Of a stretch of DNA of 28,445 bases, positions 6,201-28,218 are shown piece by piece. The notes below the pieces were generated by a model. The model searched no databases and was not told the DNA's origin. It saw only the letters and a program-made list of their open reading frames with translations. Every line of letters begins with the position of its first letter. Position 1 is the first letter of the stretch. Origin of the DNA: a virus (taxonomy: Duplodnaviria > Caudoviricetes); IMG/VR virus record IMGVR_UViG_3300044580_000221, positions 1-28,445 of that record. One strand, given 5' to 3'. A program made the position numbers and the translations under genes.

Positions 6201-9200
6201 TAAAGCGGTGCGTGGCCCTACCCCTGATTGGCACGTTAAAAGCCTTCTCTGCATAAGACAATATCTCGGTCTTATTAACCTTCTTGCCGATAGCCGGTTC
6301 TTTCGGCATAGAAACGCCCCAGGAGCCAGACTTTAAGGCTTCTGCCGTCTTCTTCTCGGCTATACGCTCCGCGCCCAGGTTGCTATATTTAGCAGATTTT
6401 GCCTCGCCATAAAACTTCTTGTATAAGCCTTGCCTATTCTTATTGACAAATTCCTGGACTCTGTATGTCTCTCCTCTCTCCCTTTTTTCAATCTCTACGT
6501 CTCCCATATCAAAATCCCCACGGGCAAGACTTTTCACTTCATATCCGCCACCCCGGGAATCAAGCTGAATAACGTCTGTCATCCTTGCCGGTAACTTATT
6601 GGTATTAGGTAAATTACCAATCTCACATACAATTATATATTGGGCGGCTTTATACCTTTGCACGGACTCAGATATATATTTATATATATCGCTCCTCGAT
6701 CCTATGCTGTCAATACTAAGAACCGAAGATTGAGCGTCGCAGAATATTACCGCAGTCTTATTATTCCTAACGAAATCCTTTGCCGCTCCGGCAGCCCCTT
6801 CCACACTAAAACTTGTCATCCTCCCGGCTTCCTTCCGGTAGTCAGGTTTCTCCGAGAAGAAATCATACATCCTTGCTTTAATAACTGCCGCTTCTTGGAA
6901 GGACTTCGATATAAAAGAAAACTTCCCGCTATCGGTAACTATATGCCCCTTGAACCTCTTCCCGATCAGTGAATAAGCGGTTTTTGTGGTTTCGATGTCA
7001 GGCTCAGAGGCTTCCGGGTTGCCGGATGGATGGTTGTGCGCGAAATAGATCTCATCGGCTCCTACCCTGTCGGCGGCGTTACTTATTCTATAATAGAGTT
7101 TAGACTTGAAATAAACACGGTCAGGCATACCGGAAGATATAACCTGGTGAGCCATGATTTGCTTTTCTTTGAGATATATTACCTGGAATTGCTCGATAAG
7201 TGGATGGCGGAACGCAGCGGCTATTTCTGCCACGTCGTGGATGGAATTTACTTCTTTGCCGCGGAAGTCGACAAAACCCCTTTTACGGAGTTCTTCGGCT
7301 ATTTTTGAGAGTTTCTCCGGGAATCGTATTCCCTTGTCGGCGGGTCGTATATCCCCTGCGTTCCGACCAGTTCCCTTGCTCTCTCGGACTGTTCCTTCTG
7401 AAAGTTGCGGGGTTTGCCCGGAATATCGGGATATGTCTGCTGCGGCTTTTGCGATCTTCGATTCTGCTTCTTCTGGACTGCCATAAGCGATCTCCTTTTC
7501 GCCCAAAGTATACTTTGAAGACTCGGAATTGTCAAGGTTGGGTTCAATTAAATTAGGATCATACCTGACCCCATAACTTTCCACAGCTTCTTTTAGTGGG
7601 ACGCCAATCATTTTCCCGTTGCTATCAGGATATGCGGTAGTTCCATCTGCAGTAATCCATCCCCAGTCTTTATAATCGTCTATAACACGACTTGGGACTT
7701 TTTTACCATCTACAAGTGCTCTAATAATAGCCTTTCTATGCGCGAATAGTGGTATGTTGCTAAATATCTGCCATTGGCCTATATAGTTTAATAAGTCTCC
7801 AATTTGTCCCTCAGTTGGTTTGCTTGGAATCGGTTTTCCGGTAGTCAAGTTACCTACGCCGACTACTTTACCTCCGAATCCGTGTTGATTTGTCATAGCG
7901 TTGAAAGAATCTATGCTCATTAACCCGGTGTCTACTAATTGCTGCGCAAGTTGATTTCTTTCTGCAACTTTTAATGGGTTAATTTTGTCTTTCAGTCTGT
8001 CCCCAATATATTTTATTAAAGGGATATTCTTGAATTCTTCCCGTGTCATTTCGTACGGTTCTTTATGTATTTGATATTGTTTACCTTGTTCCGCTACTGA
8101 CGAGTACCAGAAATTAACCTCAATTCCCTCATCACTTGCCCGGGTAACATTTGCATATCCGCCTTCTGATTCAACCTTGTTTATAAAGGCGAAGGCTTCT
8201 TCCGGATCAGGAAAAAGCCTTACTCCCGCTCCTTCTCCGCGGCCGCTTTCAAGATCGTGGTATGCCTGGTCCTGGCCAGCTCGATCAATTTCCTGTAATT
8301 CGGGTTGTTCAATACCGCCAATCTCCTGTTGAAGTCTTCTCTCTTCATTGATCATCTCCTTGTAATTACCATATAAATCGTCAAGGACTACCACCTGCTT
8401 TTCCGTCAGTGGTTTGCCGTTTAGGGCCTTATCAAGGATATTTAAAACAGGCTTGGCCGAGTATCCTCTGTTTTGGAAATACGGGGGGTAACTTGAAGGC
8501 TCATAACCGGCGTTTATCACTTCCCCGGTAATATTATCACGCGTAACGTATCTTCTCCCCCGGCCACCGGAAGATATTTCGCTTTTCATATCCTCAATAC
8601 CGGTTTTTATGTCATCGTTGAGCTTGACGGCTGATTTCTCATCGAGTTCTATCCCACCTTTTGCCCCTTTGATTGTCTGCTCTATCTGAGTCTTCGGCTG
8701 AAGCCTCTCGGCGAGACGCTTTGTCATCAACACGTCTATTGGATCGGCGCCATTTATTATCTGCTCTCGATAAGGAAGAAGTTCGGCGTACATCCCTTTT
8801 GAAGGATCTGCGCCGGCGGCCCGGGCGCGCGCGGCTTCCTTTGCTCCCACCCTGTCAAATATCTGTGCCCGCTGCAATTTTCCTTTAGCTTGCTGAACCT
8901 CCAATATTACGTCGTCCACGTTCCCATATTCACTCTTGAGCTTCTTAAGGAAAACCTTCCTGTTCTGCTCGTATAAGGCTTTTTGGAAGTTTGGCGAGAG
9001 ATCGGTCTCAGGGTTTAATTGAGCCTGTTTGACGAGCTTTAACGATTCTTTATAAGATACCGGCTTCCCTGCGATCCTGCGTCCCTCGGACATCACCAGT
9101 CCGCGCATTTGCGGGATCTCGGTCATTGCTCCCAATATCCCTATGGTAGCCGCGTTTATCCCTCCTCTGACCAAGGCGCTCTTTGCGTCCGGTTCTTTTC

Positions 9201-10023
9201 CGCTTAAAGCGTCCTGGGCCAGGTTTTCAGTAACAGAAGCCGCTCCGGCACCGGCAGAACGCTGTAGGATACGGTTTAATACAGTCTTCCCCAGGTCTGC
9301 GTCCTTGAATATCTTGCCTGTAACAGCGCCACCGGCGGCCGCCGTGCCTACTTTGGCGGCTCTTTGCTCAGGGGTAAGTTGCTCCTGCCGGTCTGTAACC
9401 TGCCTTACGGTCTCCTGGGCGGCCGGAATGGCCGCGAATTTAGCCACTGTGCCGCCTCCCGGGATAAGATAAGGCAAAACCCCGGCCACAACCTGAGAAA
9501 TAGCAGAATCGGCCGGAAACTCCTGTTTAAGCTCCGGATGCCCCGGGGTAATACCCAAAGCCCCCTGAGCGGCTCCTTGAATCCTGGCGACCCCTCTGCG
9601 GGATTCCTGGCGCTGCTTTTTGACAATATCCTCAACATTATCGGTTCCGTAGGTGGTTTTCAGCTCTTCTTTGGAGAATCCGGATAGGTAATTACGCACC
9701 ACGTCCCATCCTTTATCCCCTACCGTGGCCTCAATTATCTTTGCCAGCGGAGTCTCGGCCTTCTGCGTTTTGCCTTCCGGCTTTACAAGGTTTTTCTTGA
9801 TTTCAGGTGATAAGGCTTTTATCTCGGGGATTGGACGCTTGATCTCCGGGGAAGTATACGGGACGGATTCCTTTGAGACTATCTCCGGCAGCGGGTTTTC
9901 GGTATCCAAGACAAGCTTAGGCTTCTGGACGGTAGAGACAGGCTCTTGATCAAGAACAAGGCGGGGCTTCTTGACCTCCGGAGTCTCCTGGGCCTTCGGC
10001 TCATCCAAAACAAGGACTGGCAT
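3280..10023 (-). CDS. Giant polyvalent ejection protein: RadC/JAB domain, zincin (MPTase-like) domain, LPD38-like C-terminus
   Basis: JAB motif E...YFAHNHPSGNPEASEPD (HNHPSG at 7021..7038); THEIAHHID (HEIAH at 6109..6123) with downstream EGFAEY; C-terminal LRLPMPFE...KNYFGSPIE...ISPVKMEY; last of three ejection-type genes. Confidence 0.8.
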   Translation of the reverse strand: MPVLVLDEPKAQETPEVKKPRLVLDQEPVSTVQKPKLVLDTENPLPEIVSKESVPYTSPEIKRPIPEIKALSPEIKKNLVKPEGKTQKAETPLAKIIEATVGDKGWDVVRNYLSGFSKEELKTTYGTDNVEDIVKKQRQESRRGVARIQGAAQGALGITPGHPELKQEFPADSAISQVVAGVLPYLIPGGGTVAKFAAIPAAQETVRQVTDRQEQLTPEQRAAKVGTAAAGGAVTGKIFKDADLGKTVLNRILQRSAGAGAASVTENLAQDALSGKEPDAKSALVRGGINAATIGILGAMTEIPQMRGLVMSEGRRIAGKPVSYKESLKLVKQAQLNPETDLSPNFQKALYEQNRKVFLKKLKSEYGNVDDVILEVQQAKGKLQRAQIFDRVGAKEAARARAAGADPSKGMYAELLPYREQIINGADPIDVLMTKRLAERLQPKTQIEQTIKGAKGGIELDEKSAVKLNDDIKTGIEDMKSEISSGGRGRRYVTRDNITGEVINAGYEPSSYPPYFQNRGYSAKPVLNILDKALNGKPLTEKQVVVLDDLYGNYKEMINEERRLQQEIGGIEQPELQEIDRAGQDQAYHDLESGRGEGAGVRLFPDPEEAFAFINKVESEGGYANVTRASDEGIEVNFWYSSVAEQGKQYQIHKEPYEMTREEFKNIPLIKYIGDRLKDKINPLKVAERNQLAQQLVDTGLMSIDSFNAMTNQHGFGGKVVGVGNLTTGKPIPSKPTEGQIGDLLNYIGQWQIFSNIPLFAHRKAIIRALVDGKKVPSRVIDDYKDWGWITADGTTAYPDSNGKMIGVPLKEAVESYGVRYDPNLIEPNLDNSESSKYTLGEKEIAYGSPEEAESKIAKAAADISRYSGQTPQLSEGTVRESKGTGRNAGDIRPADKGIRFPEKLSKIAEELRKRGFVDFRGKEVNSIHDVAEIAAAFRHPLIEQFQVIYLKEKQIMAHQVISSGMPDRVYFKSKLYYRISNAADRVGADEIYFAHNHPSGNPEASEPDIETTKTAYSLIGKRFKGHIVTDSGKFSFISKSFQEAAVIKARMYDFFSEKPDYRKEAGRMTSFSVEGAAGAAKDFVRNNKTAVIFCDAQSSVLSIDSIGSRSDIYKYISESVQRYKAAQYIIVCEIGNLPNTNKLPARMTDVIQLDSRGGGYEVKSLARGDFDMGDVEIEKRERGETYRVQEFVNKNRQGLYKKFYGEAKSAKYSNLGAERIAEKKTAEALKSGSWGVSMPKEPAIGKKVNKTEILSYAEKAFNVPIRGRATHRFKNLAGIYSRREQIVRLRRWGEIEPMTHEIAHHIDAQMKKDLGKHWKSGSASGKERAALYKELGRLDYEPEKSRISEGFAEYMRHYLTTGQAAQKAPLFHKFFTEVFLKSNPDFAKKLTSLKDMIDTWQGQGAENRILAQIDFQKEHIEVPGWFLKARKAYEWFNRNFIDEFYTLRKIEEQMGIKPGVNIRPTADPFTMATYAKSKAGLIARTFVMEKAIDEYGKILGPGLVEILSPVSAKEMPSFIAYGIAQRALNLQKRGIESGVDIEDAKFIVDKYSAKEDWDSVLEGITSWSNHLLDWVIRAGGLGKQEAAIIRELNPIYLPFKRAFVNEMTVSRGSGASLVNRGEAVKSIKGSARPIINPIESLVSQASEMILKAQKINIARLIADLARKEGVGGFISRVPAPMTAQSFTLEKLKSQLEEIGVDLADANLEDMLTVFTQGQQYRGKDNVVSIFRDGKREFYELHPDLYRALSGLDTLDRGTLLKIFSPFARMLRLGATGLKLSFNLVRNPWRDALSYAVLSKHKDSIPILDTTKGVLTEITAKPGDLAWRFKNTGGSLSGMMGFDRAATMSIYDDLINQKLKASKKVIKAINLKNVPSLLSYLLNQVREGLNVFELGPRVAELEKSYKKYIKEHPDWTEEDAFVKAFNDAQDVTVNFTKSGYMGKRINEVTAFFNASVQGANKMGRAIKENPVGFFVKGLAWLTTLTLINWFKIKDKQWYKNLPPDYRYSNFFFEVGEHTILRLPMPFEVGTLFVSLPMAMMDAWEMNDTKYVESVRKIIEGQIPRPWNISMTAPVIQALENKNYFGSPIESRTLENLPVGERKTYNTSKLATALAGVVNGFKKDTISPVKMEYILNQYTGGALRQIPQRDIKETSDIPVLSDILVHAPEKPQRQLGEFYVDLERLKYERATDTLKGDDIRRYYRLHAASALLSAWRKKAVEYDKKGDIQGIRSVYRKIGEILGKVGYE

Positions 10024-14407: not shown

Positions 14408-15328
14408 TTAATACTTAATGATCATATTTGTTACCATGTGAGGGTTCATAACATCTTGAGCCGAGCTACCAGAAGAAGGGACAAGAATATCAGAGTTTAT
14501 ATAATCACGGGTAATTTCATACTGACCATTATTACCTGTTTTTAGCGCCAACCTATTGTCTCCGTCTGTTCCGTTGCTGTTAACTTTGGTGTAGGTGGTG
14601 GCGGCCAGAATTGTATGGGTATGTGATATATCTTTGGTCTTTGCGCCGCCTGTTTGCCCGATATACGAAAAGTCAGAATCGGAAGAATCTCTCCCTACTG
14701 GCATTAGCCCCTGCCAGTCCGGCAGGTTAAACGTTGTGCTTCCGTCCCCTGCTCCGAATGTCGTTCCTATGACCGCAAAAAGGTCTGCATAGGTAGTGCG
14801 TGATAGCGCCTGTCCCTGGCAAAGAAGCCATCCATCCGGGGCCGTTGTCGTAGGCCAGAGTAGTTGAGCGCCGACCGGGACAACTCCCGGAATCCGCACT
14901 CGGTCGTCAGCGTCAACCTTAAACACTTCAACGTATCCGTCGCCGTCTTTATTCGTTACCTTAAACCACTCATTGTTTGGCAAACGGTTGCCTTTATCGG
15001 TAAGCTGAATCTCGTTTGCGTCCGCATCGATGACGAACAACTCCACTTTCTCGTCATCACCTACCGTCTTGCCGTATATGTCGATCGCGGCTTCCGAACC
15101 TGTGCCGGTTGGCTGGACAGGCGTGCCGGTGCCTACGGTGATAAACCGGCCTTTTTTGAACCCGACGATTGTCTCCCATTCGCTTTCGCTGTCTGTCGTG
15201 AACCCGTAGATAATATCCTGAAGCCTCTCGGCCAGGTCTTTCATTATGTTTCTTGAATAACCCGGGATATTCTTAAATTTTGAATGATCTGGGATTAACG
15301 ACGAATCCCAATTACGCGTAAATGTCAT
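14408..15328 (-). CDS. Tail fibre protein with a phage tail collar domain
   Basis: VPVGAQLLW...APDGWLLCQGQALSRTTYADLFAVIGTTFGAGDGSTTFNLPD, followed by HTH(T) and NPHMVTNMIIKY. Confidence 0.85.
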   Translation of the reverse strand: MTFTRNWDSSLIPDHSKFKNIPGYSRNIMKDLAERLQDIIYGFTTDSESEWETIVGFKKGRFITVGTGTPVQPTGTGSEAAIDIYGKTVGDDEKVELFVIDADANEIQLTDKGNRLPNNEWFKVTNKDGDGYVEVFKVDADDRVRIPGVVPVGAQLLWPTTTAPDGWLLCQGQALSRTTYADLFAVIGTTFGAGDGSTTFNLPDWQGLMPVGRDSSDSDFSYIGQTGGAKTKDISHTHTILAATTYTKVNSNGTDGDNRLALKTGNNGQYEITRDYINSDILVPSSGSSAQDVMNPHMVTNMIIKY

Positions 15329-15462
15329 CTTATACCTCCAGGGTTCTTACCGCGTAACTCTGTGCCAATAAGTAATACAGGTCAGAATTAAGCAGGCAGA
15401 AAATCAACATCGAAAAAAACCTGTTATTTGAGAACTTTATACGCATACGCTCAGATGATTTT

Positions 15463-15999
15463 CTATGCGACTTTAACCTTATGGTTAATCAATAACGAAT
15501 CTCCATTCGCAACGTTTAAAACAGCGAAGGATTGGCTGGCCAACATTGTGCCGGCCAATGTAGCGTTAAATATGCCTTCTTCTGTTAACGCCAAGGATCC
15601 AGTAAAAGAAAACGTGGTGGTAAACTGCATAGTGTCGTTCGAGACGGTAGTTGTAGTCAGTGTTCCAACAACATCAGCTCCGCCTCTGCGCGCCCCCCCG
15701 TTTGTAGTGCACTCGGCGCCCAATGCGGTGGCCCCAGGTGTGCCGGTTCCGAGCGCAATATAATCAAATGCCGTCCCGCCTACATCCGGAGATAACAGAC
15801 TGGCCATCAGGGCTTTTCCGGCATCTGTAATGGTGTTCTTTATGTGCCTGGTCTCTTTTATGCGGCCGTTCTTATCCCGCAGAACCATCTCTATTTCACC
15901 GGAGAGTTTTACGGAATCAAAAAGCCCCTTTCTCCTGCCTGTTCCAAAAACCTTGACTGCTAAGAAAACAAACGCCAATATGACTATTGCCTGGATCAT
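15463..15999 (-). CDS. Virion fibre-associated protein with an N-terminal hydrophobic helix
   Basis: KNTITDAGK...YIALGTG...TEEGIFNA...G.ML pattern seen in phage fibre-base domains; AAGGAGG SD. Confidence 0.6.
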   Translation of the reverse strand: MIQAIVILAFVFLAVKVFGTGRRKGLFDSVKLSGEIEMVLRDKNGRIKETRHIKNTITDAGKALMASLLSPDVGGTAFDYIALGTGTPGATALGAECTTNGGARRGGADVVGTLTTTTVSNDTMQFTTTFSFTGSLALTEEGIFNATLAGTMLASQSFAVLNVANGDSLLINHKVKVA

Positions 16000-16016: not shown

Positions 16017-16078
16017 AAAATAAAAAGGGCGCAAACCAGTGATCCCGTCGTAAAGACGGTATTCATGGTTTACGCCCT
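16017..16078 (-). terminator. Long-stem intrinsic terminator, copy 2
   Basis: AGGGCGUAAACCA...UGGUUUGCGCCCU followed by UUUUAUUUU. Confidence 0.75.
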
Positions 16079-16097
16079 CAAGACTGTCTCGCCGGGC
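16074..16097 (-). promoter_or_regulatory. Putative antiterminator hairpin, copy 2
   Basis: GCCC-GG-CGAGA-CAG-UCUUG-A-GGGC; 20/24 identical to 26260..26283; its 3' AGGGC is also the terminator 5' arm. Confidence 0.7.
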
Positions 16098-16562
16098 TTA
16101 AACTCTACGCCAGGTATCGTCAGGCTTTATTTTTCTTCTCCAAGTGCTCACAGCAGAAGTCGCCTTTGTCCATGTGGTTGATATTGCTGATTTCCTCATC
16201 CATTTTAAAGCTTTACTAAAAAGATCCGACAAAGAAGTATTATCTAAAAATAGTCTTGTCAGCGTGCGAGTGATTGTGTCGGTTATTGTAATGGTTTCCT
16301 CGAGTAATTTTGTGATTGTTCTGGTTATAGCGTCGCTTGAGGTAATGGAATCAATGAACGACCTGACAACTCCCCTACTGAGAATATCCGATAAAGAGGA
16401 AGAATCAGAGAACCCGCGGCTTATTCCTTTACTCATTGTTTCAGTAACTGACATGGTTTCCTCAGCTACTCCTTCCCAAACAAGAGACACGACAAGATTA
16501 CTTTCCAAATCTATTACCTCGTTCAAAGATAAATCTATAACTGGTGCGCGAAAAAAATTCAT
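16098..16562 (-). CDS. Thr/Ser-rich repeat protein (about five 18-aa repeats), probably a virion fibre component
   Basis: ETMSVTETMSKGISRGFS / DSSSLSDILSRGVVRSFI / DSITSSDAITRTITKLLE / ETITITDTITRTLTRLFL / DNTSLSDLFSKALKW. Confidence 0.65.
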   Translation of the reverse strand: MNFFRAPVIDLSLNEVIDLESNLVVSLVWEGVAEETMSVTETMSKGISRGFSDSSSLSDILSRGVVRSFIDSITSSDAITRTITKLLEETITITDTITRTLTRLFLDNTSLSDLFSKALKWMRKSAISTTWTKATSAVSTWRRKIKPDDTWRRV

Positions 16563-19261: not shown

Positions 19262-19300
19262 AACACGGGGAAGAGCCGCTCTCGCGGCCCTCCCCGCGCG
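19262..19300 (-). terminator. Stable hairpin after the capsid gene (attenuator or mRNA stabiliser)
   Basis: GCGCGGGGAGGGCCGC-GAGA-GCGGCUCUUCCCCGUGU then a short UU tail; GNRA tetraloop. Confidence 0.6.
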
Positions 19301-19317
19301 TTACATTACGCTACTGA

Positions 19318-20487
19318 CTACGCCCCTTTGCCGCTCAACCTGCCGGACGACTTGAATTTCTTCGCCACCAGGTTGAAGTAATACTTCAAGGTGCCTTCCC
19401 AGATGGTCCTATTGCTCGCGGACCTCTTGAGAATGCCTCCGTGAGCGTCAGCCTCAAGCCAGGCAAAAGGCTTGCTCATCTCGGCTATTGTCAAGGCTTC
19501 GAAGTCCACGAACTGCATATATCCGCTCCATGTGTCAAAATCGCAGATTACGGGTATACCGTTCATAAACTCCAAACCTTTCCATCCGCCGCTCAACACT
19601 TCTTTCAAGTCAGCCGTTTTCTTCATCGAAGTCAACAGCTGGCCGTATTTGCTGAACAGCGTTTCTCCGGCCAGGACTACCTTTGCTCCGCCGAACTTCA
19701 GCGTCTTGAGATACAGATTGATCATATACGCTTCGGTCAGCGTTGCGCTGGTGTCCTCGGTGTAGGCACAGGCCCACGGAGCCGCAGACCTGGTTATTGC
19801 CTGTATCGTGGCGACGTTATCTCCGTCGTCTATGATACCGGCAAGACCCATCGCTTCAGCCGCACTGGCCTTTGTTATCACCGTGTCGTCAGCCCAGGTT
19901 GACGCCGTCGCCAGCGTTACCTGGGTTGCCGAATCGACGGTAGATATCTGAACCGCCGAACCGGTGCCGATCTGGATATACATACCTTCCACCAGGTAGT
20001 CGGTAGCATCCCCTCCGTGCGGAGCGGTGTCAACGATCAGCGTGGTCGAAGCCGAACCCGTGCCGTTGGTCTGGCAGAGTTTGCCGGTCCCGGCGCCGTG
20101 CAGCTGCCGGTTGAGGTCCATCCTGAAGTCGTCCTTCAAAGCCTGGATCTCGGTGCTCAATATCGCGGATATGGCCTTGATATTATCGTTGGCCGCCTCG
20201 ATTGCCTGATCGGTCAGCTCAAGCGTGCCGAAGGCATACTTGACCGACGTATAAGGCTGTTCGTATTTCGATTTCCCGGAGTAAGGCTCCGTCCCCTCGG
20301 CAACTGCATAAATACCGCTATGACGCCCCGACCTTACCGGGATGTATATGGTATTGTTCGTTACGGTTACGCCGACATTCTTTTTGATCTTGTCAAAAAG
20401 AATGCTTTCCTTCCGCAGCTGAGACTGCACGACGGGCACGATTATCTTTTTCAGCACCGCCGATATGTTGCTTATTGTTAATCCCAT
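19318..20487 (-). CDS. Major capsid protein
   Basis: 389 aa after the scaffold; AVAEG and DLNRQLHGAGTG motifs; perfect GGAGGTGA SD; downstream hairpin. Confidence 0.85.
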   Translation of the reverse strand: MGLTISNISAVLKKIIVPVVQSQLRKESILFDKIKKNVGVTVTNNTIYIPVRSGRHSGIYAVAEGTEPYSGKSKYEQPYTSVKYAFGTLELTDQAIEAANDNIKAISAILSTEIQALKDDFRMDLNRQLHGAGTGKLCQTNGTGSASTTLIVDTAPHGGDATDYLVEGMYIQIGTGSAVQISTVDSATQVTLATASTWADDTVITKASAAEAMGLAGIIDDGDNVATIQAITRSAAPWACAYTEDTSATLTEAYMINLYLKTLKFGGAKVVLAGETLFSKYGQLLTSMKKTADLKEVLSGGWKGLEFMNGIPVICDFDTWSGYMQFVDFEALTIAEMSKPFAWLEADAHGGILKRSASNRTIWEGTLKYYFNLVAKKFKSSGRLSGKGA

Positions 20488-21617: not shown

Positions 21618-23531
21618 TTAACTGCCCGGCTGCCCTGGGGCTTGGCCGGGTATTGCTGCTTGTTTGGGCTGACCTGGTTGACCGCCCGGTTTACCTGCAT
21701 TCATATTTGCCGCTGTCTGCATCTCGTTCAAAAGCGCCTGCTGATGCGCACCGCGGTGCATCATAAAGACTTTCTGCAACTCAATCGGGAGTTTCCGGAA
21801 GTTCTCCCCTTTCATAAACTTCTCGATAATTTCGATATGCGCCTGATGGTAATCCCACTCATTGACCTGCGGAAGAACTCCTTTTGTCATCTCCATATTT
21901 TCCATACGCTGCGCTTGCCGATCCAGATCGTTGTATATTCCGGTCAGTTCCCCGAATTCCATCAACTCAAGGGCCCTGTCCTTGTTGATATATCCCTCGT
22001 TGCGCATTGCTCTTATAAACATCTGCCTTTCGTTCTTACTCAGCGGCATATTCGAGCCTACCGATACTTGTATGCGCCTCTGGCCCTCTACTCCCTTCCC
22101 GAGAAACGTCTTTACGTCAGCCTCTTCCTCATTGCCTGCTATACCGATAAGCCTGCGTTCGGTATACTTCACCTGCATAATGTCAAGCGTCATTTCGGAG
22201 AAAAAGGATAGCTGCTGTTCGATCTTTAGAAGGATCGGGGAAAGCTGGTTGTTGTCAAGCTCATTGAGGTTCTCGATGGCCACGCCGCTTTTTATTTGCT
22301 CAGGCAACCTTCCCATGCCGGAATCGTGCACGCCGGCGGCGTCTTCCATATCCTTACGTATGCGCGCCAGATCGTCCCAGAGCTTTGTCGGTGGAGACGG
22401 CGGTGTCTCAAAATGCGGCTCGCCCAGGCCCGGAGTATAGATTATGTACTGGCCTATCTCATCGTCATACTTGCTTTGGAGATTACAGCCGTCCGGGACT
22501 TTTATCTTTCCTCCGAACCATTTCTTGTAAGCGTAGATCCTTGAAAGCGTGTAATTGTAGTCTTCCTGCAGCTCTATCAGTTGGTCGATCATACCCTGGG
22601 GGAACTGTGCCAGCATTATGTCCAGGTAATCTATGTTGAAGTAAGGCAGCCGGGTCTTATACTCAGACGGGATAGAGCCGTCAAATATGACCATCTTGGA
22701 GGTGCATATAACATACCGGCCTTCCGGGTACTGCTCGGACGGGATCTCCCAATACTCGTATACCTTCGCGCAACCTTCGTATTGGCTTTTCTCTTCCCCT
22801 GCGCCGTCAAGCATACTTATAAGCTGCTGTTCAACGTCGGACACAACGAGATCTTCTGCTTCAATGTCAACCCCATACTGCTTTTTTATCTCTTCCACCG
22901 GCAAAATCGACTGCTCGATGAAATACCGGCCCATTGGATCTTCGAAGACGTTAAACGGAGAAAGCGCCTTGACTTCGACCTCCCCAATTTCCGCATTAGG
23001 GACAGGAGCATCGTCAAGATACGCCGTGGACCGGGTTTTAGGGTTGAAATAAGGCTTCAAATACCCGCGGCCGGTGGTAAGGGCATACCCGAACACTTTT
23101 GCCAGTACAAGAGGCATCCCGGCGTATTTCTGGCAGAGAACAGGATTATGCTTATTAGCGGTGATCCAGAAGTCCTCAAGCCCCTCCTGTCCTACCCGGG
23201 CAGCAGATTTGTCCCTGTCGCTATTGGTAAGGGCAGATACCGAAACGTGCGCCTTCATTCTCAACAACCGTGAGAGCAAAGACCGATAGAGCGGAAGAAT
23301 ATAATTCGATGTCCTCCTTGTCTTCCCCTTGCGCTCCTCGGTCTTAAGCTCCCATAGGATCCGGTCTTCCGTGGCGTTGCCGGTGGGCTGAACCCTTTCA
23401 AGGACAAAATGCTGCTTGCCGTATAGAAACGCTATATTCATCAGCCATTGACGCTCATACATTGCGCGTCTGCGCTGTATCTTGTCTTTCTTATCGATTA
23501 TTGTCTTTGATATAGATGTTGGCTCACTCAT
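21618..23531 (-). CDS. Portal protein
   Basis: 637 aa after TerL; SNYILP, GMIDQLIELQEDYN and KSGVAI motifs; Q/P/G tail. Confidence 0.85.
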   Translation of the reverse strand: MSEPTSISKTIIDKKDKIQRRRAMYERQWLMNIAFLYGKQHFVLERVQPTGNATEDRILWELKTEERKGKTRRTSNYILPLYRSLLSRLLRMKAHVSVSALTNSDRDKSAARVGQEGLEDFWITANKHNPVLCQKYAGMPLVLAKVFGYALTTGRGYLKPYFNPKTRSTAYLDDAPVPNAEIGEVEVKALSPFNVFEDPMGRYFIEQSILPVEEIKKQYGVDIEAEDLVVSDVEQQLISMLDGAGEEKSQYEGCAKVYEYWEIPSEQYPEGRYVICTSKMVIFDGSIPSEYKTRLPYFNIDYLDIMLAQFPQGMIDQLIELQEDYNYTLSRIYAYKKWFGGKIKVPDGCNLQSKYDDEIGQYIIYTPGLGEPHFETPPSPPTKLWDDLARIRKDMEDAAGVHDSGMGRLPEQIKSGVAIENLNELDNNQLSPILLKIEQQLSFFSEMTLDIMQVKYTERRLIGIAGNEEEADVKTFLGKGVEGQRRIQVSVGSNMPLSKNERQMFIRAMRNEGYINKDRALELMEFGELTGIYNDLDRQAQRMENMEMTKGVLPQVNEWDYHQAHIEIIEKFMKGENFRKLPIELQKVFMMHRGAHQQALLNEMQTAANMNAGKPGGQPGQPKQAAIPGQAPGQPGS

Positions 23532-23741: not shown

Positions 23742-23900
23742 TCAGACCTTTCCCGCCAGCACCAAACCGGCGAACTTGACTCTCTCGATAAAAGGGGAAG
23801 TGTTGATATGACTCCTGATCTGCTGTTCAATCTCTATCCTTGCCCCTCTAACAGCCTTACCCAATTCTCTGCGTATCTTCTTTGCCTTCTTTTGGTTCAC
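23742..23900 (-). CDS. Small basic hypothetical protein (52 aa, MNQKKAKKIRR...)
   Basis: GTG at 23900 overlaps the TerL stop (GTGA) with GGAGG upstream; preferred over the TTG at 23966. Confidence 0.6.
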   Translation of the reverse strand: MNQKKAKKIRRELGKAVRGARIEIEQQIRSHINTSPFIERVKFAGLVLAGKV

Positions 23901-25429
23901 GCCGTTTCCTCCGCCGAAACCGCCATATTGGTATCTATCTGTCTTGTTTCCCCACCGTTGCGGCAAGCCTCGTCGTGCCTCTGGCCGTCTTTCTTAACCC
24001 TATCCCAGAAACTTTGCGCGGGTGTCTTTGGGGGTTCCGGCATCTTCGGGGCCGGTGGCCTGCTCATTACCGCATACCTCAACTCATCGGCTGCGTGATC
24101 CTCTCCGGTAGTGTCTACGTCTTCAACGCGCTCCGTGTCATGTATCAGTCCTGGGATTGTACGGATAAAATGCCGGCAGTTGTCAGTAACCATAAACTTC
24201 GAACATACGCCTCCGGACTGCGTGGGTATCAGCTTGAGAATTTCTCTAACCTTGCCCCAGCCGATTATCCGGGAGTTATCCGCCCTGTAGAGCGTGGTTA
24301 GAGGCTTGAGCAACCTGGTAATCATCTCCCCGCCGCTCTCGCCTTTCTTCTCGTCTGCTTTCGGTTTGAACGCCTTGGCCAGGTGATGCTGCACGTCCCC
24401 CCAGATCGCCGGGTCTGCTACCGCATAGCTGATTTTCTGCCCTTCCGGGGTCATTTGCCGTATCTTCTCGGCAAGTCCCTCATAGGTATAGCCCTCCGAA
24501 TAAAGCTCTCTGTGCCTAAGAAGCAACTGATGGTCCCCGTTGCATACCGGACACTTAGCGAAGAGCATATACCAGCCCACGCTTGCCGGTTGTGCATACC
24601 CATAGTCAAAAGAGATAAACCTTGTGTGGCGGGCTTCTGCCAGCCTTTCGATAACGCCAGCCGGGATAACGTGGTAGGCTTTAGAGAACTCCCGGAAGAA
24701 CTGACCGGCAAAGATGTCCCAATCTCCGAAGCGGAGTGCCTTCCGGTCAGTCTCCGGAAGCATATCGAGACGCTTTATATAGTCAGGGTCGTTACGCAGC
24801 AAAGCCTGGTTATCTTCTATCTGGGCGAACACAAAAGCCCTGGAAAGGGCCTGCGGGTCATCTGCGGTTGTCTGGATATCCTCATCGTTCACGCGTTTGA
24901 AATACCGCGGCGTGCCGTCTTTTGGTAGGCGGTCAATGAAGCGGTCTTTTACCCAGGCGTGGCCCACGTTACCCGGATTGGACGTTGACCTGGTATAGCA
25001 CTTGATTCCCGAGGCCGAACTCCTGTTCTGGGCCAGCAGGAAGAGATATTGCGTAAGCGTGAATTCTTCCACCTGGTCAAAACCCATAAAGCCGTATTCG
25101 TGGCCTTGATAGTTATATTTGTCCTTCTCGTCTTTGCAGTATCCGAAAGCGATGAAATTGCGGTTCGGCCAGGTCCAGCGGTGTTTCTCGCCATTCCAGG
25201 CAGCTTCGCTCTGCGAAAACCACTTATGCGACCGCTCAATGATCTCCGCCAGTTTAGGCAGTGTTCGGCGGAAGATTATGGCTTGATACCCGGGCGTAGA
25301 TAGTTGCCTCGTGGATTCCGCAAGCAGGGCGTCAGTCTTCCCTGGGCCTTTGGTCCCTCCAAACAAAGCTTCGTACCAGGGGAGACGTAGAAACTGTTCT
25401 TGCTTCGGCTGTGGGTACCAGTCATCCAT
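23897..25429 (-). CDS. terL: Terminase large subunit
   Basis: PQPKQ Q-motif; Walker A GGTKGPGKT; STSNPG motif III; nuclease residues FDYGY, VADP and EDHAADELRY. Confidence 0.93.
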   Translation of the reverse strand: MDDWYPQPKQEQFLRLPWYEALFGGTKGPGKTDALLAESTRQLSTPGYQAIIFRRTLPKLAEIIERSHKWFSQSEAAWNGEKHRWTWPNRNFIAFGYCKDEKDKYNYQGHEYGFMGFDQVEEFTLTQYLFLLAQNRSSASGIKCYTRSTSNPGNVGHAWVKDRFIDRLPKDGTPRYFKRVNDEDIQTTADDPQALSRAFVFAQIEDNQALLRNDPDYIKRLDMLPETDRKALRFGDWDIFAGQFFREFSKAYHVIPAGVIERLAEARHTRFISFDYGYAQPASVGWYMLFAKCPVCNGDHQLLLRHRELYSEGYTYEGLAEKIRQMTPEGQKISYAVADPAIWGDVQHHLAKAFKPKADEKKGESGGEMITRLLKPLTTLYRADNSRIIGWGKVREILKLIPTQSGGVCSKFMVTDNCRHFIRTIPGLIHDTERVEDVDTTGEDHAADELRYAVMSRPPAPKMPEPPKTPAQSFWDRVKKDGQRHDEACRNGGETRQIDTNMAVSAEETA

Positions 25430-25901
25430 CGGCTTTTTTATCCTGTTTTGGTAGGTATATGTTTGGCCCTTTAATTTCCCCGGAGTGCTCTACTTCCTGC
25501 TTATCCTTCCACTCGTCAGACTTACGGTTTTTAAGCCAGATAAAACAAGCGGCGGTATCAGGAGCCCACGCGGCCTCTTCTTCTACCATTTCTACATGGC
25601 TACCGTTCTCCCTGCCATCGCTTACAACAACTGCTTTTTTTACCTTCGTTCTATATCCGAGAGCTCTTTTATAGAGGGCGCGCACTACTTTCTGGTCAGC
25701 TTTATACTTCCAGTCTTTAAGGGCCTCAAAAAAGTCAGGGTGCTCTTTCTTCCAGTTGTTTAACGTCTGCTCGGTGAACCCGAAGAACTTAGCGACTTCT
25801 TTGTCCGTAAATCCATGCAGGACAAGAGTTCTGAGCTGCTCTTTGTCTACTGCGGTAAACTTTGTCGGCCGCCCCATCTTTTTTGGCTGTCTATATCCCA
25901 T
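25422..25901 (-). CDS. terS: Terminase small subunit (HTH type)
   Basis: GRPTKF, HTH, ALYKRALGY, PDTAACFIWLKNR...WKDKQE; overlaps the TerL start. Confidence 0.85.
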   Translation of the reverse strand: MGYRQPKKMGRPTKFTAVDKEQLRTLVLHGFTDKEVAKFFGFTEQTLNNWKKEHPDFFEALKDWKYKADQKVVRALYKRALGYRTKVKKAVVVSDGRENGSHVEMVEEEAAWAPDTAACFIWLKNRKSDEWKDKQEVEHSGEIKGPNIYLPKQDKKADG

Positions 25902-25927
25902 ACTGAAAATTTAATGATTATTTATGC

Positions 25928-25955
25928 TTTTTCTACCGCTCCGACGGTAGAAAAA
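25928..25955. repeat. Inverted repeat upstream of terS
   Basis: TTTTTCTACCG-CTCCGA-CGGTAGAAAAA, 11-bp perfect arms. Confidence 0.8.
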
Positions 25956-25975
25956 AGACAAAAACCGTTGCAGTT

Positions 25976-26182
25976 TTATATATTCCGAAGCATTATCTTT
26001 TCCAGGATTGACTTAACACAGGATAGTTGATTCAATGCCTTCTCGACTTTTCTAAGCTTTTTTGCGATTTTCCGCGCTTCTTCCGCGCTCAAGGGACCTT
26101 TGTCATAAAATAACTTTTCCAGTCGTTTCCGCGGGACCCTTATCCAGACAGTTGAAAAACTCAGCAGATGCTTTTCCAACAT
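25976..26182 (-). CDS. Small basic hypothetical protein (68 aa)
   Basis: ATG at 26182 follows AAAGGAG; first gene after terminator copy 1. Confidence 0.55.
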   Translation of the reverse strand: MLEKHLLSFSTVWIRVPRKRLEKLFYDKGPLSAEEARKIAKKLRKVEKALNQLSCVKSILEKIMLRNI

Positions 26183-26207
26183 TTCTTTTCTCCTTTCGGT
26201 AGACAAC

Positions 26208-26262
26208 AAAAAAGGCGCAAGCCGGATACCCGCGCGCTTCGCGCGAAATCCAGACTTGCGCC
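26208..26262 (-). terminator. Long-stem intrinsic terminator, copy 1, ahead of the packaging operon
   Basis: GGCGCAAG...CUUGCGCC followed by UUUUUU. Confidence 0.8.
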
Positions 26263-26283
26263 CTCAAGACTATCTTGTCAGGC
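26260..26283 (-). promoter_or_regulatory. Putative antiterminator hairpin, copy 1
   Basis: GCCU-GA-CAAGA-UAG-UCUUG-A-GGGC, 7 nt after the stop of the 49-aa gene; overlaps the terminator 5' arm. Confidence 0.7.
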
Positions 26284-26290
26284 TATTTAT

Positions 26291-26440
26291 TTATCCGAGG
26301 CTTTCCCGTTTTTCAATAATGTCCCCTTTGGTGATTTTCCCTTCGTGAATCTTGAACTCGATAATCATCGAACCGAACCGCATTTCATCGGCCCGGCGCT
26401 TTAGCTCTTTTATTATCACTTCCTGCTTATCTTCAGGCAT
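26291..26440 (-). CDS. 49-aa YezD/DUF2292-like protein (absent from the ORF track)
   Basis: Translated by hand: MPEDKQEVIIKELKRRADEMRFGSMIIEFKIHEGKITKGDIIEKRESLG; helix-FGS-strand-HEG-strand-EK pattern recalled for DUF2292. Confidence 0.65.
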   Translation of the reverse strand: MPEDKQEVIIKELKRRADEMRFGSMIIEFKIHEGKITKGDIIEKRESLG

Positions 26441-26445
26441 GTTTA

Positions 26446-26664
26446 TTATCTAATGCACTCTCGTATAATGCTTATATTATCCAAAGGGATCATTGCATCT
26501 AAAACCTTTCTATTATCCCGTATCACCAGAAAACGGCTATTTATCTCTACCATGGTGCCAACGAGAATGTCCCTCCGCTGCGCAGGATCTAACGTTTCCC
26601 CACTTAAGACTAATCTGGTTGTTTTTAATTCTACCTTGATCAAACTACCCGCTTCGATAGACAT
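26446..26664 (-). CDS. 72-aa small beta-barrel protein, possibly Sm/Hfq- or SH3-like
   Basis: LVGTMVEINSRFLVIRD...AMIPLDNISIIRE; ATG at 26664 follows GGAAGGGG. Confidence 0.5.
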   Translation of the reverse strand: MSIEAGSLIKVELKTTRLVLSGETLDPAQRRDILVGTMVEINSRFLVIRDNRKVLDAMIPLDNISIIRECIR

Positions 26665-26718: not shown

Positions 26719-28218
26719 TCATATAAGCCCCTTCTTTATCCCCGGATCAATAACAGGCGGGATAGGAGGTGGGACAGCAGCATCCGGCCGTATGATCCGG
26801 CTCTTCCTGGCGGCCAATTCCTCACGGATCTTCTTTATCCGCTCGCGTTCCGCATTGATGAACGACATCGCCGCCTCACGCTGCTCTGGGATAATATTCT
26901 TCTCCGCATTTTCAAGGAATGCTTCGGCGTCTTTTAGGTGCCCCATGTCCGTAAGCATGACGGCTATATTATTATTTAGGCGGAAGTCGTTCTTGCGCAA
27001 CTTCCAGCCCTTAAACCATGTTTCAAGCGCAATGAAGTTATGACCGGCCTTCTTTTCGAGCAATCCTTTCCAGGTATAGCAGGAATAGAGATCCGGGTAG
27101 TTCATGATATTCGAATCAGCCTGGGCCATCTCATCCTTGTAAGCCGGGATATGAAAGATGGTCCTGACGAGGTAGTATACGAAAAATGCAGTCGTTACAA
27201 TCGTCTGGAGGTATAAACCGCTATCCTCTACCGGGATCTTGGCCAGAAGATTACTCATCATCAACATCAGCCCAACCAGAGGAAGGTATATATATCGCTC
27301 TGCGATTGACTGCTGTATTGTTATCACATTGCACCATTGCGAAATAAAAAGCACGAACCAAAACAGACCAAACACGGCCTGGTCAGTATAGATATTCTTG
27401 ATATTGCAAATCAGTATCGACATCACGGTTAAGCCAAGGAAGAAATACCCGTCTATCCTGTGGCATTCCTTGTTGTCTTTATCGCTCAGGCCATAACTGT
27501 AAAGAAACTTATGGTATATCCCGAGCCTAAAAGGCATCAACCCCATCAGAAAATAGTACCCCAGCGTCTTGAAATACAGAATGATCTTCACCGGCTTGAA
27601 GGCGGTCATTATTTTTGTGGATCCTCCCCAGCGCGGCCCGATCAGCTTCTTGTAGTACCACAGAAACGTAAGTGCTCCTGCAGGGATAAGAAATATATAC
27701 CACCAGTAATCCGACAATATGAACATCGCCGGCGTCAAGATGAAATTGAAGTTAGTCGCCGCTATTGCGAAATTGAAAAAGTAAAGTATCGGTGCATAAG
27801 CAGGAAACACCCACATAAGCAGGGCCGTAAGCGTGGCTATTGAATACCCGCGCGCCGACATCCATACGGACCCTTGGGTCCCGGCGGGATTCACGGCAAA
27901 TAACACGGCCGCCATAAAAGAGACTGAATTACTACCAAAGGCATAGTAGATCATAATTGAATTGGCCGCATGGAACAGTAGCGTGAACAGATGCGCCAGC
28001 TTCTTTGACTTCAGGCGCGTATACGAAAAATGCCACCATAGGTATTGAATGGGGTTTGAGGCGGTCAGCTCCGGCGTATAGGCCGGCGGATTGTTTTTGA
28101 TCTTGCGCAGCTTATTGGAATTCTTCCACAGCTGCACGTCGTCCACGCAGAGGCCGTAAAATATCGTCTTCCAGAATACCAAAAGAACGAGAGTGAATAT
28201 CAGGATTGCGGGTATCAT
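26719..28218 (-). CDS. Multi-pass GT-C glycosyltransferase-like protein (TMTC-like) with a C-terminal TPR
   Basis: DD after TM1; LFAVNP...SVWMSAR; IAERYIYLP; many TM helices; TPR-like NNNIAVMLTDMGHLKDAEAFLENA. Confidence 0.75.
   Translation of the reverse strand: MIPAILIFTLVLLVFWKTIFYGLCVDDVQLWKNSNKLRKIKNNPPAYTPELTASNPIQYLWWHFSYTRLKSKKLAHLFTLLFHAANSIMIYYAFGSNSVSFMAAVLFAVNPAGTQGSVWMSARGYSIATLTALLMWVFPAYAPILYFFNFAIAATNFNFILTPAMFILSDYWWYIFLIPAGALTFLWYYKKLIGPRWGGSTKIMTAFKPVKIILYFKTLGYYFLMGLMPFRLGIYHKFLYSYGLSDKDNKECHRIDGYFFLGLTVMSILICNIKNIYTDQAVFGLFWFVLFISQWCNVITIQQSIAERYIYLPLVGLMLMMSNLLAKIPVEDSGLYLQTIVTTAFFVYYLVRTIFHIPAYKDEMAQADSNIMNYPDLYSCYTWKGLLEKKAGHNFIALETWFKGWKLRKNDFRLNNNIAVMLTDMGHLKDAEAFLENAEKNIIPEQREAAMSFINAERERIKKIREELAARKSRIIRPDAAVPPPIPPVIDPGIKKGLI

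What the first reader, a model, noticed from the sequence alone, without database searches (positions are those of the whole stretch)
26208..26440. Candidate phage late-gene antitermination system: DUF2292-like microprotein plus a RAT-like RNA switch
Seen: an unannotated 49-aa ORF is followed after 7 nt by a 24-nt hairpin (GCCU-GA-CAAGA-UAG-UCUUG-A-GGGC; 4-bp and 5-bp stems around a 2x1 purine internal loop). Its 3' GGC is also the start of the 5' arm of an intrinsic terminator, so the two folds compete. The terminator stands in front of the whole terS-terL-portal-capsid operon. Known: BglG/LicT RAT elements use this overlap logic, and DUF2292/YezD is, as I recall, a family with no established mechanism. 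Inference: the microprotein binds the hairpin and permits read-through, acting as a late switch unrelated to lambda N or Q.
Basis: partly seen in the sequence, partly recalled or inferred. Interest (0 to 1): 0.92.

Follow-up and report, generated by a model that had tools for sequence, protein, structure and literature searches.

The report
Small-protein RNA gate before phage late genes
In this uncultured phage a conserved, uncatalogued RNA hairpin shares bases with a predicted transcription stop signal right behind the gene for a 49-residue protein, and the same pairing recurs in many other phages, so the protein likely holds the hairpin shut to let transcription run on into the virion genes; binding is untested.

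Summary
The 49-aa ORF, the 24-nt hairpin and the overlapping terminator are all there. A second hairpin-terminator copy lies at 16017-16097 in the virion genes. The hairpin covaries across 25 copies from two phage groups and has no Rfam match. It contests only the bottom three or four G-C pairs of the terminator, and the two states differ by 1-4 kcal/mol. The ORF is a real gene and a divergent DUF2292 homologue (below Pfam's cut-off; profile-profile E 7e-6), predicted to form a helix-hairpin homodimer. Gene and element are linked both ways: 16 of 17 distinct related loci carry the hairpin; 12 of 17 canonical DUF2292 phage loci carry hairpin plus terminator downstream, none upstream or antisense. 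Corrections: a conserved 68-codon gene lies between gate and terS; terS may have its own promoter; in 13 of 28 loci a sigma-like or late-activator-like gene follows the gate; copy 2 is absent from close relatives. Best model (0.6): the protein stabilises the hairpin and opens the gate, as a delay timer. It works like BglG/RAT but is not a member. No binding or RNA-end data. The scan noted the same pairing before, on other DNA (8 notes).

The parts
26291..26440 (-). Gene for a 49-aa DUF2292-like protein (helix 5-20, beta-hairpin 24-32/35-45); predicted homodimer; candidate antiterminator
   Evidence: (third-position bias)
26260..26283 (-). Hairpin copy 1: 4-bp lower stem, GA/A internal loop, 5-bp upper stem; 7 nt after the stop codon
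26208..26262 (-). Predicted intrinsic terminator 1 (stem 26214-26262, U-tract 26208-26213); its three basal G-C pairs use the hairpin's last GGC
25976..26182 (-). Conserved 68-aa ORF, first gene behind the gate, with a Shine-Dalgarno-like AAGGAG; function unknown (weak HTH lead only)
25899..25975 (-). Conserved non-coding stretch before terS, with a -10-like hexamer 6-7 nt before the ATG; possible own late promoter (inferred)
25422..25901 (-). Terminase small subunit, followed by terL (23897-25429), P22-like portal (21618-23531) and podophage major capsid (19318-20487)
16074..16097 (-). Hairpin copy 2 (GG/A loop), directly after the stop of ORF 16098-16562, with no small gene beside it
16017..16077 (-). 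Predicted intrinsic terminator 2 (stem 16027-16077, U-tract 16017-16026), before the 178-aa gp80-like gene; absent from a close relative

Best explanation
This is a two-part transcription gate: a conserved 24-nt RNA hairpin shares its last three or four bases with the foot of a predicted intrinsic terminator, and the 49-aa DUF2292-like protein encoded just upstream likely binds the hairpin, as a predicted dimer, and keeps it shut so that RNA polymerase would read through. Shown: the two folds, their overlap, their conservation, and their link to the gene. Computed: the hairpin is predicted to be fully formed (P > 0.99) until the last four terminator bases are made; the naked RNA then flips to the terminator (P 0.94 for copy 1, 0.998 for copy 2). 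A protein would need to supply only 1.3 and 3.6 kcal/mol to prevent this. Inferred: the gene lies upstream of its own gate on the same strand, so early transcripts would make the protein and stop, and read-through would begin once enough had built up. That gives a delay timer with positive feedback at the early-to-late boundary. It would release the 68-codon gene (a sigma-like or late-activator-like gene in many relatives) and, directly or through that gene, the virion genes. Copy 2, 10 kb downstream with no small gene beside it, would be opened by the same protein in trans.
For: Covariation: 93.7% of cells paired, 33 double changes, 0 of 500 shuffles as high, slid controls 33-54% (25 copies; 16 copies). 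One pair varies on one side (U-G 15, C-G 9, U-A 1), which points to RNA rather than DNA. Protein-first: 21 of 22 loci examined (16 of 17 distinct) carry the hairpin 2-730 nt downstream; 19 show the terminator and 2 are cut by contig ends. Canonical DUF2292 phage loci: 12 of 17 have hairpin plus terminator downstream on the same strand, 0 in 57 kb upstream and 0 in 119 kb antisense; 10 of 14 after removing the three records that came from the motif search. Motif-first with a different stem: 18 of 117 matches overlap a terminator against 2 of 118 for a non-pairing control (Fisher p 1e-4). PF10055 is found in 5 of 17 records with hairpin plus terminator (3 over cut-off) against 0 of 47 with hairpin only and 0 of 49 controls. 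Energy gap: median 5.4 kcal/mol over 26 elements. Terminator sequences differ widely between loci while the overlap is kept. Homodimer: score 0.72 against best control 0.01; that mark was reached by 20 of 30 solved pairs of one chain and 1 of 23 single chains; the runs agree in 100% of contacts, pLDDT at least 85.
Against: No binding, reporter or RNA 3'-end data. The protein is net neutral (11 K+R, 11 D+E, pI 6.6) and has no known RNA-binding fold. No hairpin was found near five homologues (L027, L028, L293, L298, L299; L292 is cut short). Four loci (L149, L151, L307, L308) pair the gate with a different small protein that hhalign does not match to DUF2292 (probability under 1%). 12 of 17 gate-bearing records had no PF10055 hit, though many are fragments and that search also misses the window's own protein. 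Related phages share the arrangement by descent, so counts overstate independence. The hairpin lies 2-7 nt after a stop codon in 14 of 16 elements of the window's group, which a protein-only model does not need.
Confidence: 0.6

Rival explanations
1. Ribosome-coupled attenuation: a ribosome finishing the upstream ORF covers the hairpin's 5' strand and so decides between hairpin and terminator; the protein product is secondary or only modulates the switch.
For: The hairpin begins 2-7 nt after a stop in 14 of 16 elements of the window's group, including six where the ORF is not the DUF2292-like one; 7 nt and 0 nt in the window. That distance lies within a terminating ribosome's footprint (general knowledge).
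Against: In the 14 elements of the canonical group the spacing runs from -5 to 147 nt. The small protein is conserved at the amino-acid level with a predicted folded dimer, unlike a leader peptide. The upstream ORFs were called mechanically, and tight spacing is common in compact phage genomes.
Confidence: 0.13
2. The hairpin is read by a host factor or by RNA polymerase itself, and the DUF2292-like gene stays beside it for another reason, such as acting on DNA or on a partner protein at the early-late boundary.
For: The protein is neutral and matches no known RNA-binding fold. Some gates lie beside unrelated small proteins and some homologues have no gate.
Against: Two divergent protein groups each keep the element downstream on the same strand. 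In Spirochaetota genomes searched, PF10055 was found in 0 of 201, and the RNA model gave 2 weak matches in 61, neither followed by a terminator.
Confidence: 0.12
3. The protein binds the hairpin but acts like lambda N at nut: it loads on RNA polymerase and makes it resistant to several downstream terminators, so the local overlap is only part of the effect.
For: The site lies at the start of a long virion gene cluster, and close relatives manage with one copy.
Against: Both strong coding-strand terminators found in the window carry their own hairpin, as expected of a local mechanism. The 3-4 bp overlap is kept across very different terminators.
Confidence: 0.1
4. The hairpin is only an incidental part of an ordinary terminator region with no regulatory role.
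For: Copy 2 is missing in a close relative, and one contig shows it partly deleted.
Against: Compensatory changes, conserved internal-loop bases, and strand- and side-specific link to the gene.
Confidence: 0.03

Closest known systems
BglG/SacY/LicT antiterminators with RAT hairpins (passages of PMC5393181 read)
   Same: A short hairpin with internal-loop features overlaps the 5' arm of an intrinsic terminator; a small dimeric domain (CAT, about 55 residues) stabilises it; the contest is for the terminator's basal stem.
   Different: RAT is 29-33 nt with two conserved internal loops and a 6-10 nt overlap; here about 22-26 nt, one 2x1 loop and 3-4 nt. The protein is a stand-alone helix plus beta-hairpin with no CAT or PRD match and no sensor domain, and it is encoded upstream of its site.
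DUF2292 / YezD / OscA family (Pfam PF10055, NCBIfam NF033785)
   Same: Same size and helix-G-strand-turn-strand pattern; profile-profile match to canonical phage members at probability 84%, E 7e-6; canonical members carry the same hairpin-terminator.
   Different: The window's protein is below Pfam's cut-off (17.3 against 22 bits) and far below OscA's (12.7 against 85). The papers I saw give no mechanism: yezD is listed as unknown (PMC6385201, passages), oscA as a sulfur starvation response gene (PMC10433965, passage).
Lambda N/nut and Q antitermination (recalled, not read)
   Same: A phage protein made early lets transcription pass terminators into later genes; the N gene precedes a terminator it overcomes.
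   Different: N and Q modify RNA polymerase processively; here a local fold competition is built into each terminator. No sequence or family match to N or Q in Pfam, PHROGs or NCBIfam.
conAn bipartite antitermination of conjugative plasmids (abstract and outline of PMC8191782 read)
   Same: A protein gene followed by an RNA element at the start of a long operon of a mobile element.
   Different: conAn uses a large RNA that itself antiterminates and a processivity protein; here the RNA is a 24-nt hairpin fused to one terminator.
Ltr late activators RinA/ArpU/LtrC (passages of PMC3753634 read)
   Same: [quoted passage not shown]
   Different: Ltr proteins bind DNA repeats upstream of terS and were reported as the only phage proteins needed for terS expression in the phages tested; the gate would be an RNA-level step upstream of them.

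Membership tests
BglG/SacY (CAT-RAT) | N-terminal CAT RNA-binding domain | tested here: not met
   No CAT family hit in Pfam at E 0.1 for the protein or at E 0.05 for 46 homologues; no solved relative by sequence
BglG/SacY (CAT-RAT) | Two PRD sensor domains | tested here: not met
   The protein is 49 aa; longer fused forms were not searched
BglG/SacY (CAT-RAT) | RAT of 29-33 nt with two conserved internal loops and 6-10 nt overlap | tested here: not met
   One internal loop, 24 nt, overlap mostly 3-4 nt (range 2-6) against PMC5393181
BglG/SacY (CAT-RAT) | Hairpin mutually exclusive with the terminator base | tested here: met
   By folding prediction only
BglG/SacY (CAT-RAT) | Protein dimer binds the hairpin and causes read-through | not testable with these tools
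   Dimer predicted; RNA binding untested
DUF2292 (PF10055) | Score at or above the gathering cut-off of 22 bits | tested here: not met
   17.3 bits, E 0.0037
DUF2292 (PF10055) | Homology at profile level | tested here: met
   23 of 46 homologues hit PF10055 at E up to 0.05, best 3.3e-5; hhalign to canonical members 84%, score 29.7 against at most 14.4 in 40 column shuffles
OscA (NF033785) | Equivalog cut-off of 85 bits and sulfur-uptake gene context | tested here: not met
   12.7 bits; neighbours are phage genes
Any Rfam 15 family | Match at the gathering score | tested here: not met
   0 in the window; best E 1 in 25800-26600; best E 0.13 in six related loci
Lambda N/nut-type processive antitermination | Read-through of unrelated downstream terminators via polymerase modification | not testable with these tools
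   Needs a two-terminator reporter
Known RNA-binding folds | Structural match to a solved RNA-binding domain | tested here: inconclusive
   No Foldseek match at E 0.001; best VIA Z 3.8, rmsd 4.4, 45 aligned; small models give weak scores

The most novel reading that the evidence does not exclude
DUF2292/YezD/OscA proteins are a widespread, undescribed family of minimal sensor-less RNA-binding antiterminators, among the smallest known. Each recognises a one-loop hairpin welded to a terminator's foot. Phages use the pair as a self-amplifying delay timer that releases the late activator and virion genes, and can gate further genes by gaining a 100-nt hairpin-terminator cassette, as copy 2 suggests.
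Probability: 0.55. Interest if true: 0.88.

Novelty: new variant of a known kind. Interest (0 to 1): 0.75.

Why it matters
If true, it gives a mechanism to a family of unknown function found in Bacillus subtilis (YezD) and Pseudomonas (OscA). It adds an RNA-level timing step to phage late-gene control upstream of known late activators. It also offers a very compact switch (49 aa plus about 75 nt) that can be tested directly in vitro. The logic, protein-held hairpin against terminator, is known from BglG/LicT; both parts and the use as a phage timer were not found described in the searches listed.

Tried and rejected
Rfam: no match. Fold searches and a PDB sequence search gave no significant relative; this does not show the fold is new. 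tblastn of the window protein and of a canonical DUF2292 protein against annotated phages and plasmids, and blastn of one element, found nothing, so no cultured host was identified. The single genome-contig scan returned one weak Spirochaetales locus, so chromosomal yezD/oscA loci could not be examined. RNA data: run X19 has one 165-nt contig at 26368-26532, depth 2.4; contigs show neither ends nor strand, so it is no evidence. The sigma-70-like site at 26476-26503 is not above chance (11 found, 13.6 expected), and in relatives the upstream gene ends 14-18 nt before the small gene, so I do not count it as the promoter. The profile comparison was circular (both alignments held the window protein) and was replaced. 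Of the 11 matches to the pattern, 5 were loci already held, 5 had neither an overlapping terminator nor the gene (taken as chance), and 1 (L036) had both. About four of the 18 terminator calls look spurious by eye (L047, L069, L091, L129) and were left in the count; one of the five PF10055 hits (G206, 25-codon frame) is probably spurious. The perfect inverted repeat before terS is not kept as a hairpin in three relatives. The 68-aa protein gave only a weak HTH lead (Atlas 0.90, 132 shared features) and a two-helix model at pLDDT 73; I do not call it a regulator. A kink-turn reading was considered from memory and dropped, since the loop is 2x1 without tandem G-A pairs.

Full report
Setting. The window is a whole 28,445-base virus record, estimated 69% complete. 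Its long ORFs lie on the - strand: terminase small and large subunits, a P22-like portal, a podophage major capsid protein and tail genes. The five runs holding at least half of the region's words are anaerobic digester or biogas metagenomes from two studies. The host was not identified.

The observation. A repeat search finds the second copy at 16074-16097. It starts directly after the stop of a 154-aa ORF and again shares its last bases with a terminator of quite different sequence. These are the two strongest of the 10 hairpin-plus-U-tract sites my scan listed on the coding strand. None of 150 shuffles of the window gave two such sites, with the caveat that the descriptor came from these elements. 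A contig from another run repeats copy 2 with one difference.

The gene. Differences from seven relatives fall mainly on third codon positions, for example 6/2/20 against L003, so it is a real coding gene. It hits PF10055 at E 0.0037, below the cut-off. 23 of 46 homologues hit the family at E up to 0.05. A profile of the 46 matches a profile of 10 canonical phage members at probability 84%, score 29.7 against at most 14.4 in 40 shuffles. AlphaFold2 gives one helix and a beta-hairpin at pLDDT 92. A homodimer is supported by the model, not shown: 0.72 against best control 0.01, a mark reached by 20 of 30 solved pairs and 1 of 23 single chains; the first strands of the two copies pair with each other. 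No significant structural relative was found. The protein is net neutral.

The RNA. Sixteen copies from the window's group pair in 93% of cells with 14 double changes. With nine more, eight of them from a second group, 25 copies pair in 93.7% with 33 double changes; 0 of 500 shuffles reach this and slid controls give 33-54% (two rows are misaligned by one column and count against the structure). Relatedness inflates such counts, but the upper stem takes at least four different sequences. Nearly fixed are a C-G pair in the lower stem, the C-G pair above the loop, the purine before it and the unpaired A opposite. The first loop base varies, and L017 has a different loop yet keeps both stems and the overlap. 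A model built on the 16 found copies it had not seen, L036 at 33.9 bits and L017 at 21.8. Rfam has no match.

The switch. Only the foot of the terminator is contested; its upper part can form in both states. Hairpin plus shortened terminator lies 1.3 kcal/mol (copy 1) and 3.6 kcal/mol (copy 2) above the full terminator. Over 26 elements from 24 of 34 sources given, the median is 5.4 and the range -1.0 to 13.0 (ten sources fell out at the U-tract filter). In nascent-RNA folds the hairpin is fully formed until the last four terminator bases appear, and then gives way. So termination is the predicted default and a modest stabilisation would prevent it. Polymerase is not modelled.

Link between gene and element. 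Protein-first in the window's group: searches gave 26 rows; I examined 22 loci after setting aside repeats, 17 of them distinct. The hairpin is present in 21 of 22 (16 of 17 distinct), directly after the gene in 9 of the 17 and 100-730 nt on in 7; L027 has none in 1.3 kb. Motif-first with a different upper stem (pattern partly recalled, partly generalised from the alignment; both scans stopped at 6 of 64 parts of the collection): 18 of 117 distinct matches overlap a terminator, against 2 of 118 for a pattern that cannot pair. PF10055 occurs in 5 of the 17 held records with a terminator, 3 over the cut-off. It occurs in 0 of 47 held records without a terminator (50 of about 100 loci given) and 0 of 49 controls (50 of 120 given). 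Protein-first again with a canonical member: 12 of 17 loci have hairpin plus terminator 60-1220 nt downstream on the same strand, none upstream or antisense; 10 of 14 without the three records that came from the motif search. Against: five homologues without a hairpin found (L027, L028, L293, L298, L299), and four gates beside a small protein not matched to DUF2292.

What the gate controls. In relatives the upstream gene ends 14-18 nt before the small gene (L003, L014), so the small gene probably closes a longer upstream transcript, and the gate marks the boundary to the packaging genes. In the window and seven relatives a 64-71-aa gene of unknown function follows the gate. Before terS, five close sequences keep a non-coding stretch with a -10-like hexamer 6-7 nt before the ATG and no evident ribosome-binding site. 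I read this as a possible leaderless late promoter; it is an inference. In 13 of 28 loci scanned, a gene within 1.3 kb behind the gate hits a sigma-70 region or DUF1492 at E up to 0.01 (65 ORFs sent, several hits weak; equating DUF1492 with ArpU/RinA-type activators is my recall). In L297 a probable terS-terL pair follows directly. [quoted passage not shown] The gate may therefore often act one step above such an activator rather than on the virion operon itself. Copy 2 is not general: five related records hold one copy each, and in G317 the two flanking genes are 2 nt apart. Strains about 94 nt shorter across this stretch occur in three runs.

Mechanism and rivals. I give 0.6 to local, protein-dependent antitermination acting as a delay timer; binding and read-through are inferred, not shown. 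The main rival is ribosome coupling (0.13): 14 of 16 elements of the window's group start 2-7 nt after a stop codon, whichever gene it is, although the canonical group is not so tight. A host-read hairpin (0.12), processive N-like action (0.10) and no function (0.03) make up most of the rest.

What is known. The logic matches BglG/SacY/LicT, but the RAT definition and the CAT and PRD domains are not met (PMC5393181, passages). Full-text searches: 'DUF2292' 2 papers (passages of one read, expression data only); 'PF10055' 0; 'YezD' 23, of which 20 were listed (passages of PMC6385201: unknown function, induced in deep starvation, deletion without effect on survival); oscA searches (one passage read); and three combined searches for such a switch (PMC7491331 does not mention yezD in its main text). 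None describes this hairpin or an RNA-binding role for the family. The library lacks most subscription papers, and I did not see the supplements of motif-discovery catalogues, where the hairpin could be listed.

Earlier notes. The scan's own index lists eight notes on other genomes proposing the same pairing in phages, CPR bacteria and before sulfur and nitrogenase genes; none on this genome or this protein. They are unchecked AI notes and are not counted as evidence. I tested the phage claim myself; the chromosomal claims I could not reach.

Verdict. A real, conserved and uncatalogued RNA element with a tightly linked small protein; known logic with new parts; directly testable. Interest 0.75.

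Noticed in passing
window 16047-16094: One contig of run X6 (depth 24, one other difference) lacks these 48 nt, which removes hairpin copy 2 and the terminator's 5' arm; natural variant or library artefact cannot be told.
   Followed up: partly
protein P0001: A homologue of the 49-aa protein whose two halves flank an HNH-endonuclease-like stretch (113 aa; HNH read by eye); possibly a mobile insertion in the gene.
   Followed up: no
L026:10147 and L026:10470: Two gates 320 nt apart, with a small gene and a TATACT -10-like site inside an inverted repeat between them.
   Followed up: partly
L149, L151, L307:10759-10926, L308:11525-11710: A family of 55-60-aa proteins upstream of the same hairpin-terminator that hhalign does not link to DUF2292; a very distant branch or a second partner family.
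   Followed up: partly
window 25916-25945: Perfect inverted repeat before terS, not kept as a hairpin in L003-L005, next to a conserved short palindromic stretch.
   Followed up: partly
window 19268-19295: Strong hairpin with a poor U-tract after the major capsid gene, without the conserved hairpin; an equivalent is present in two relatives.
   Followed up: partly
window 26719-28218: 499-aa multi-pass membrane-like protein with a weak C-terminal TPR hit, conserved just upstream of the small gene in close relatives; resembles a protein O-mannosyltransferase-type gene by recall only.
   Followed up: no
window 3280-10023: 2247-aa polyvalent-type protein with LPD38 and RadC-like JAB domains.
   Followed up: no
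window 15328-15463: Intergenic stretch almost identical in relative G317 and partly kept in G318; possible internal promoter, which would limit gate 2 to one gene.
   Followed up: partly
L028:5992-6180: A DUF2292-like ORF in a Spirochaetales genome with no hairpin found in that genome.
   Followed up: partly
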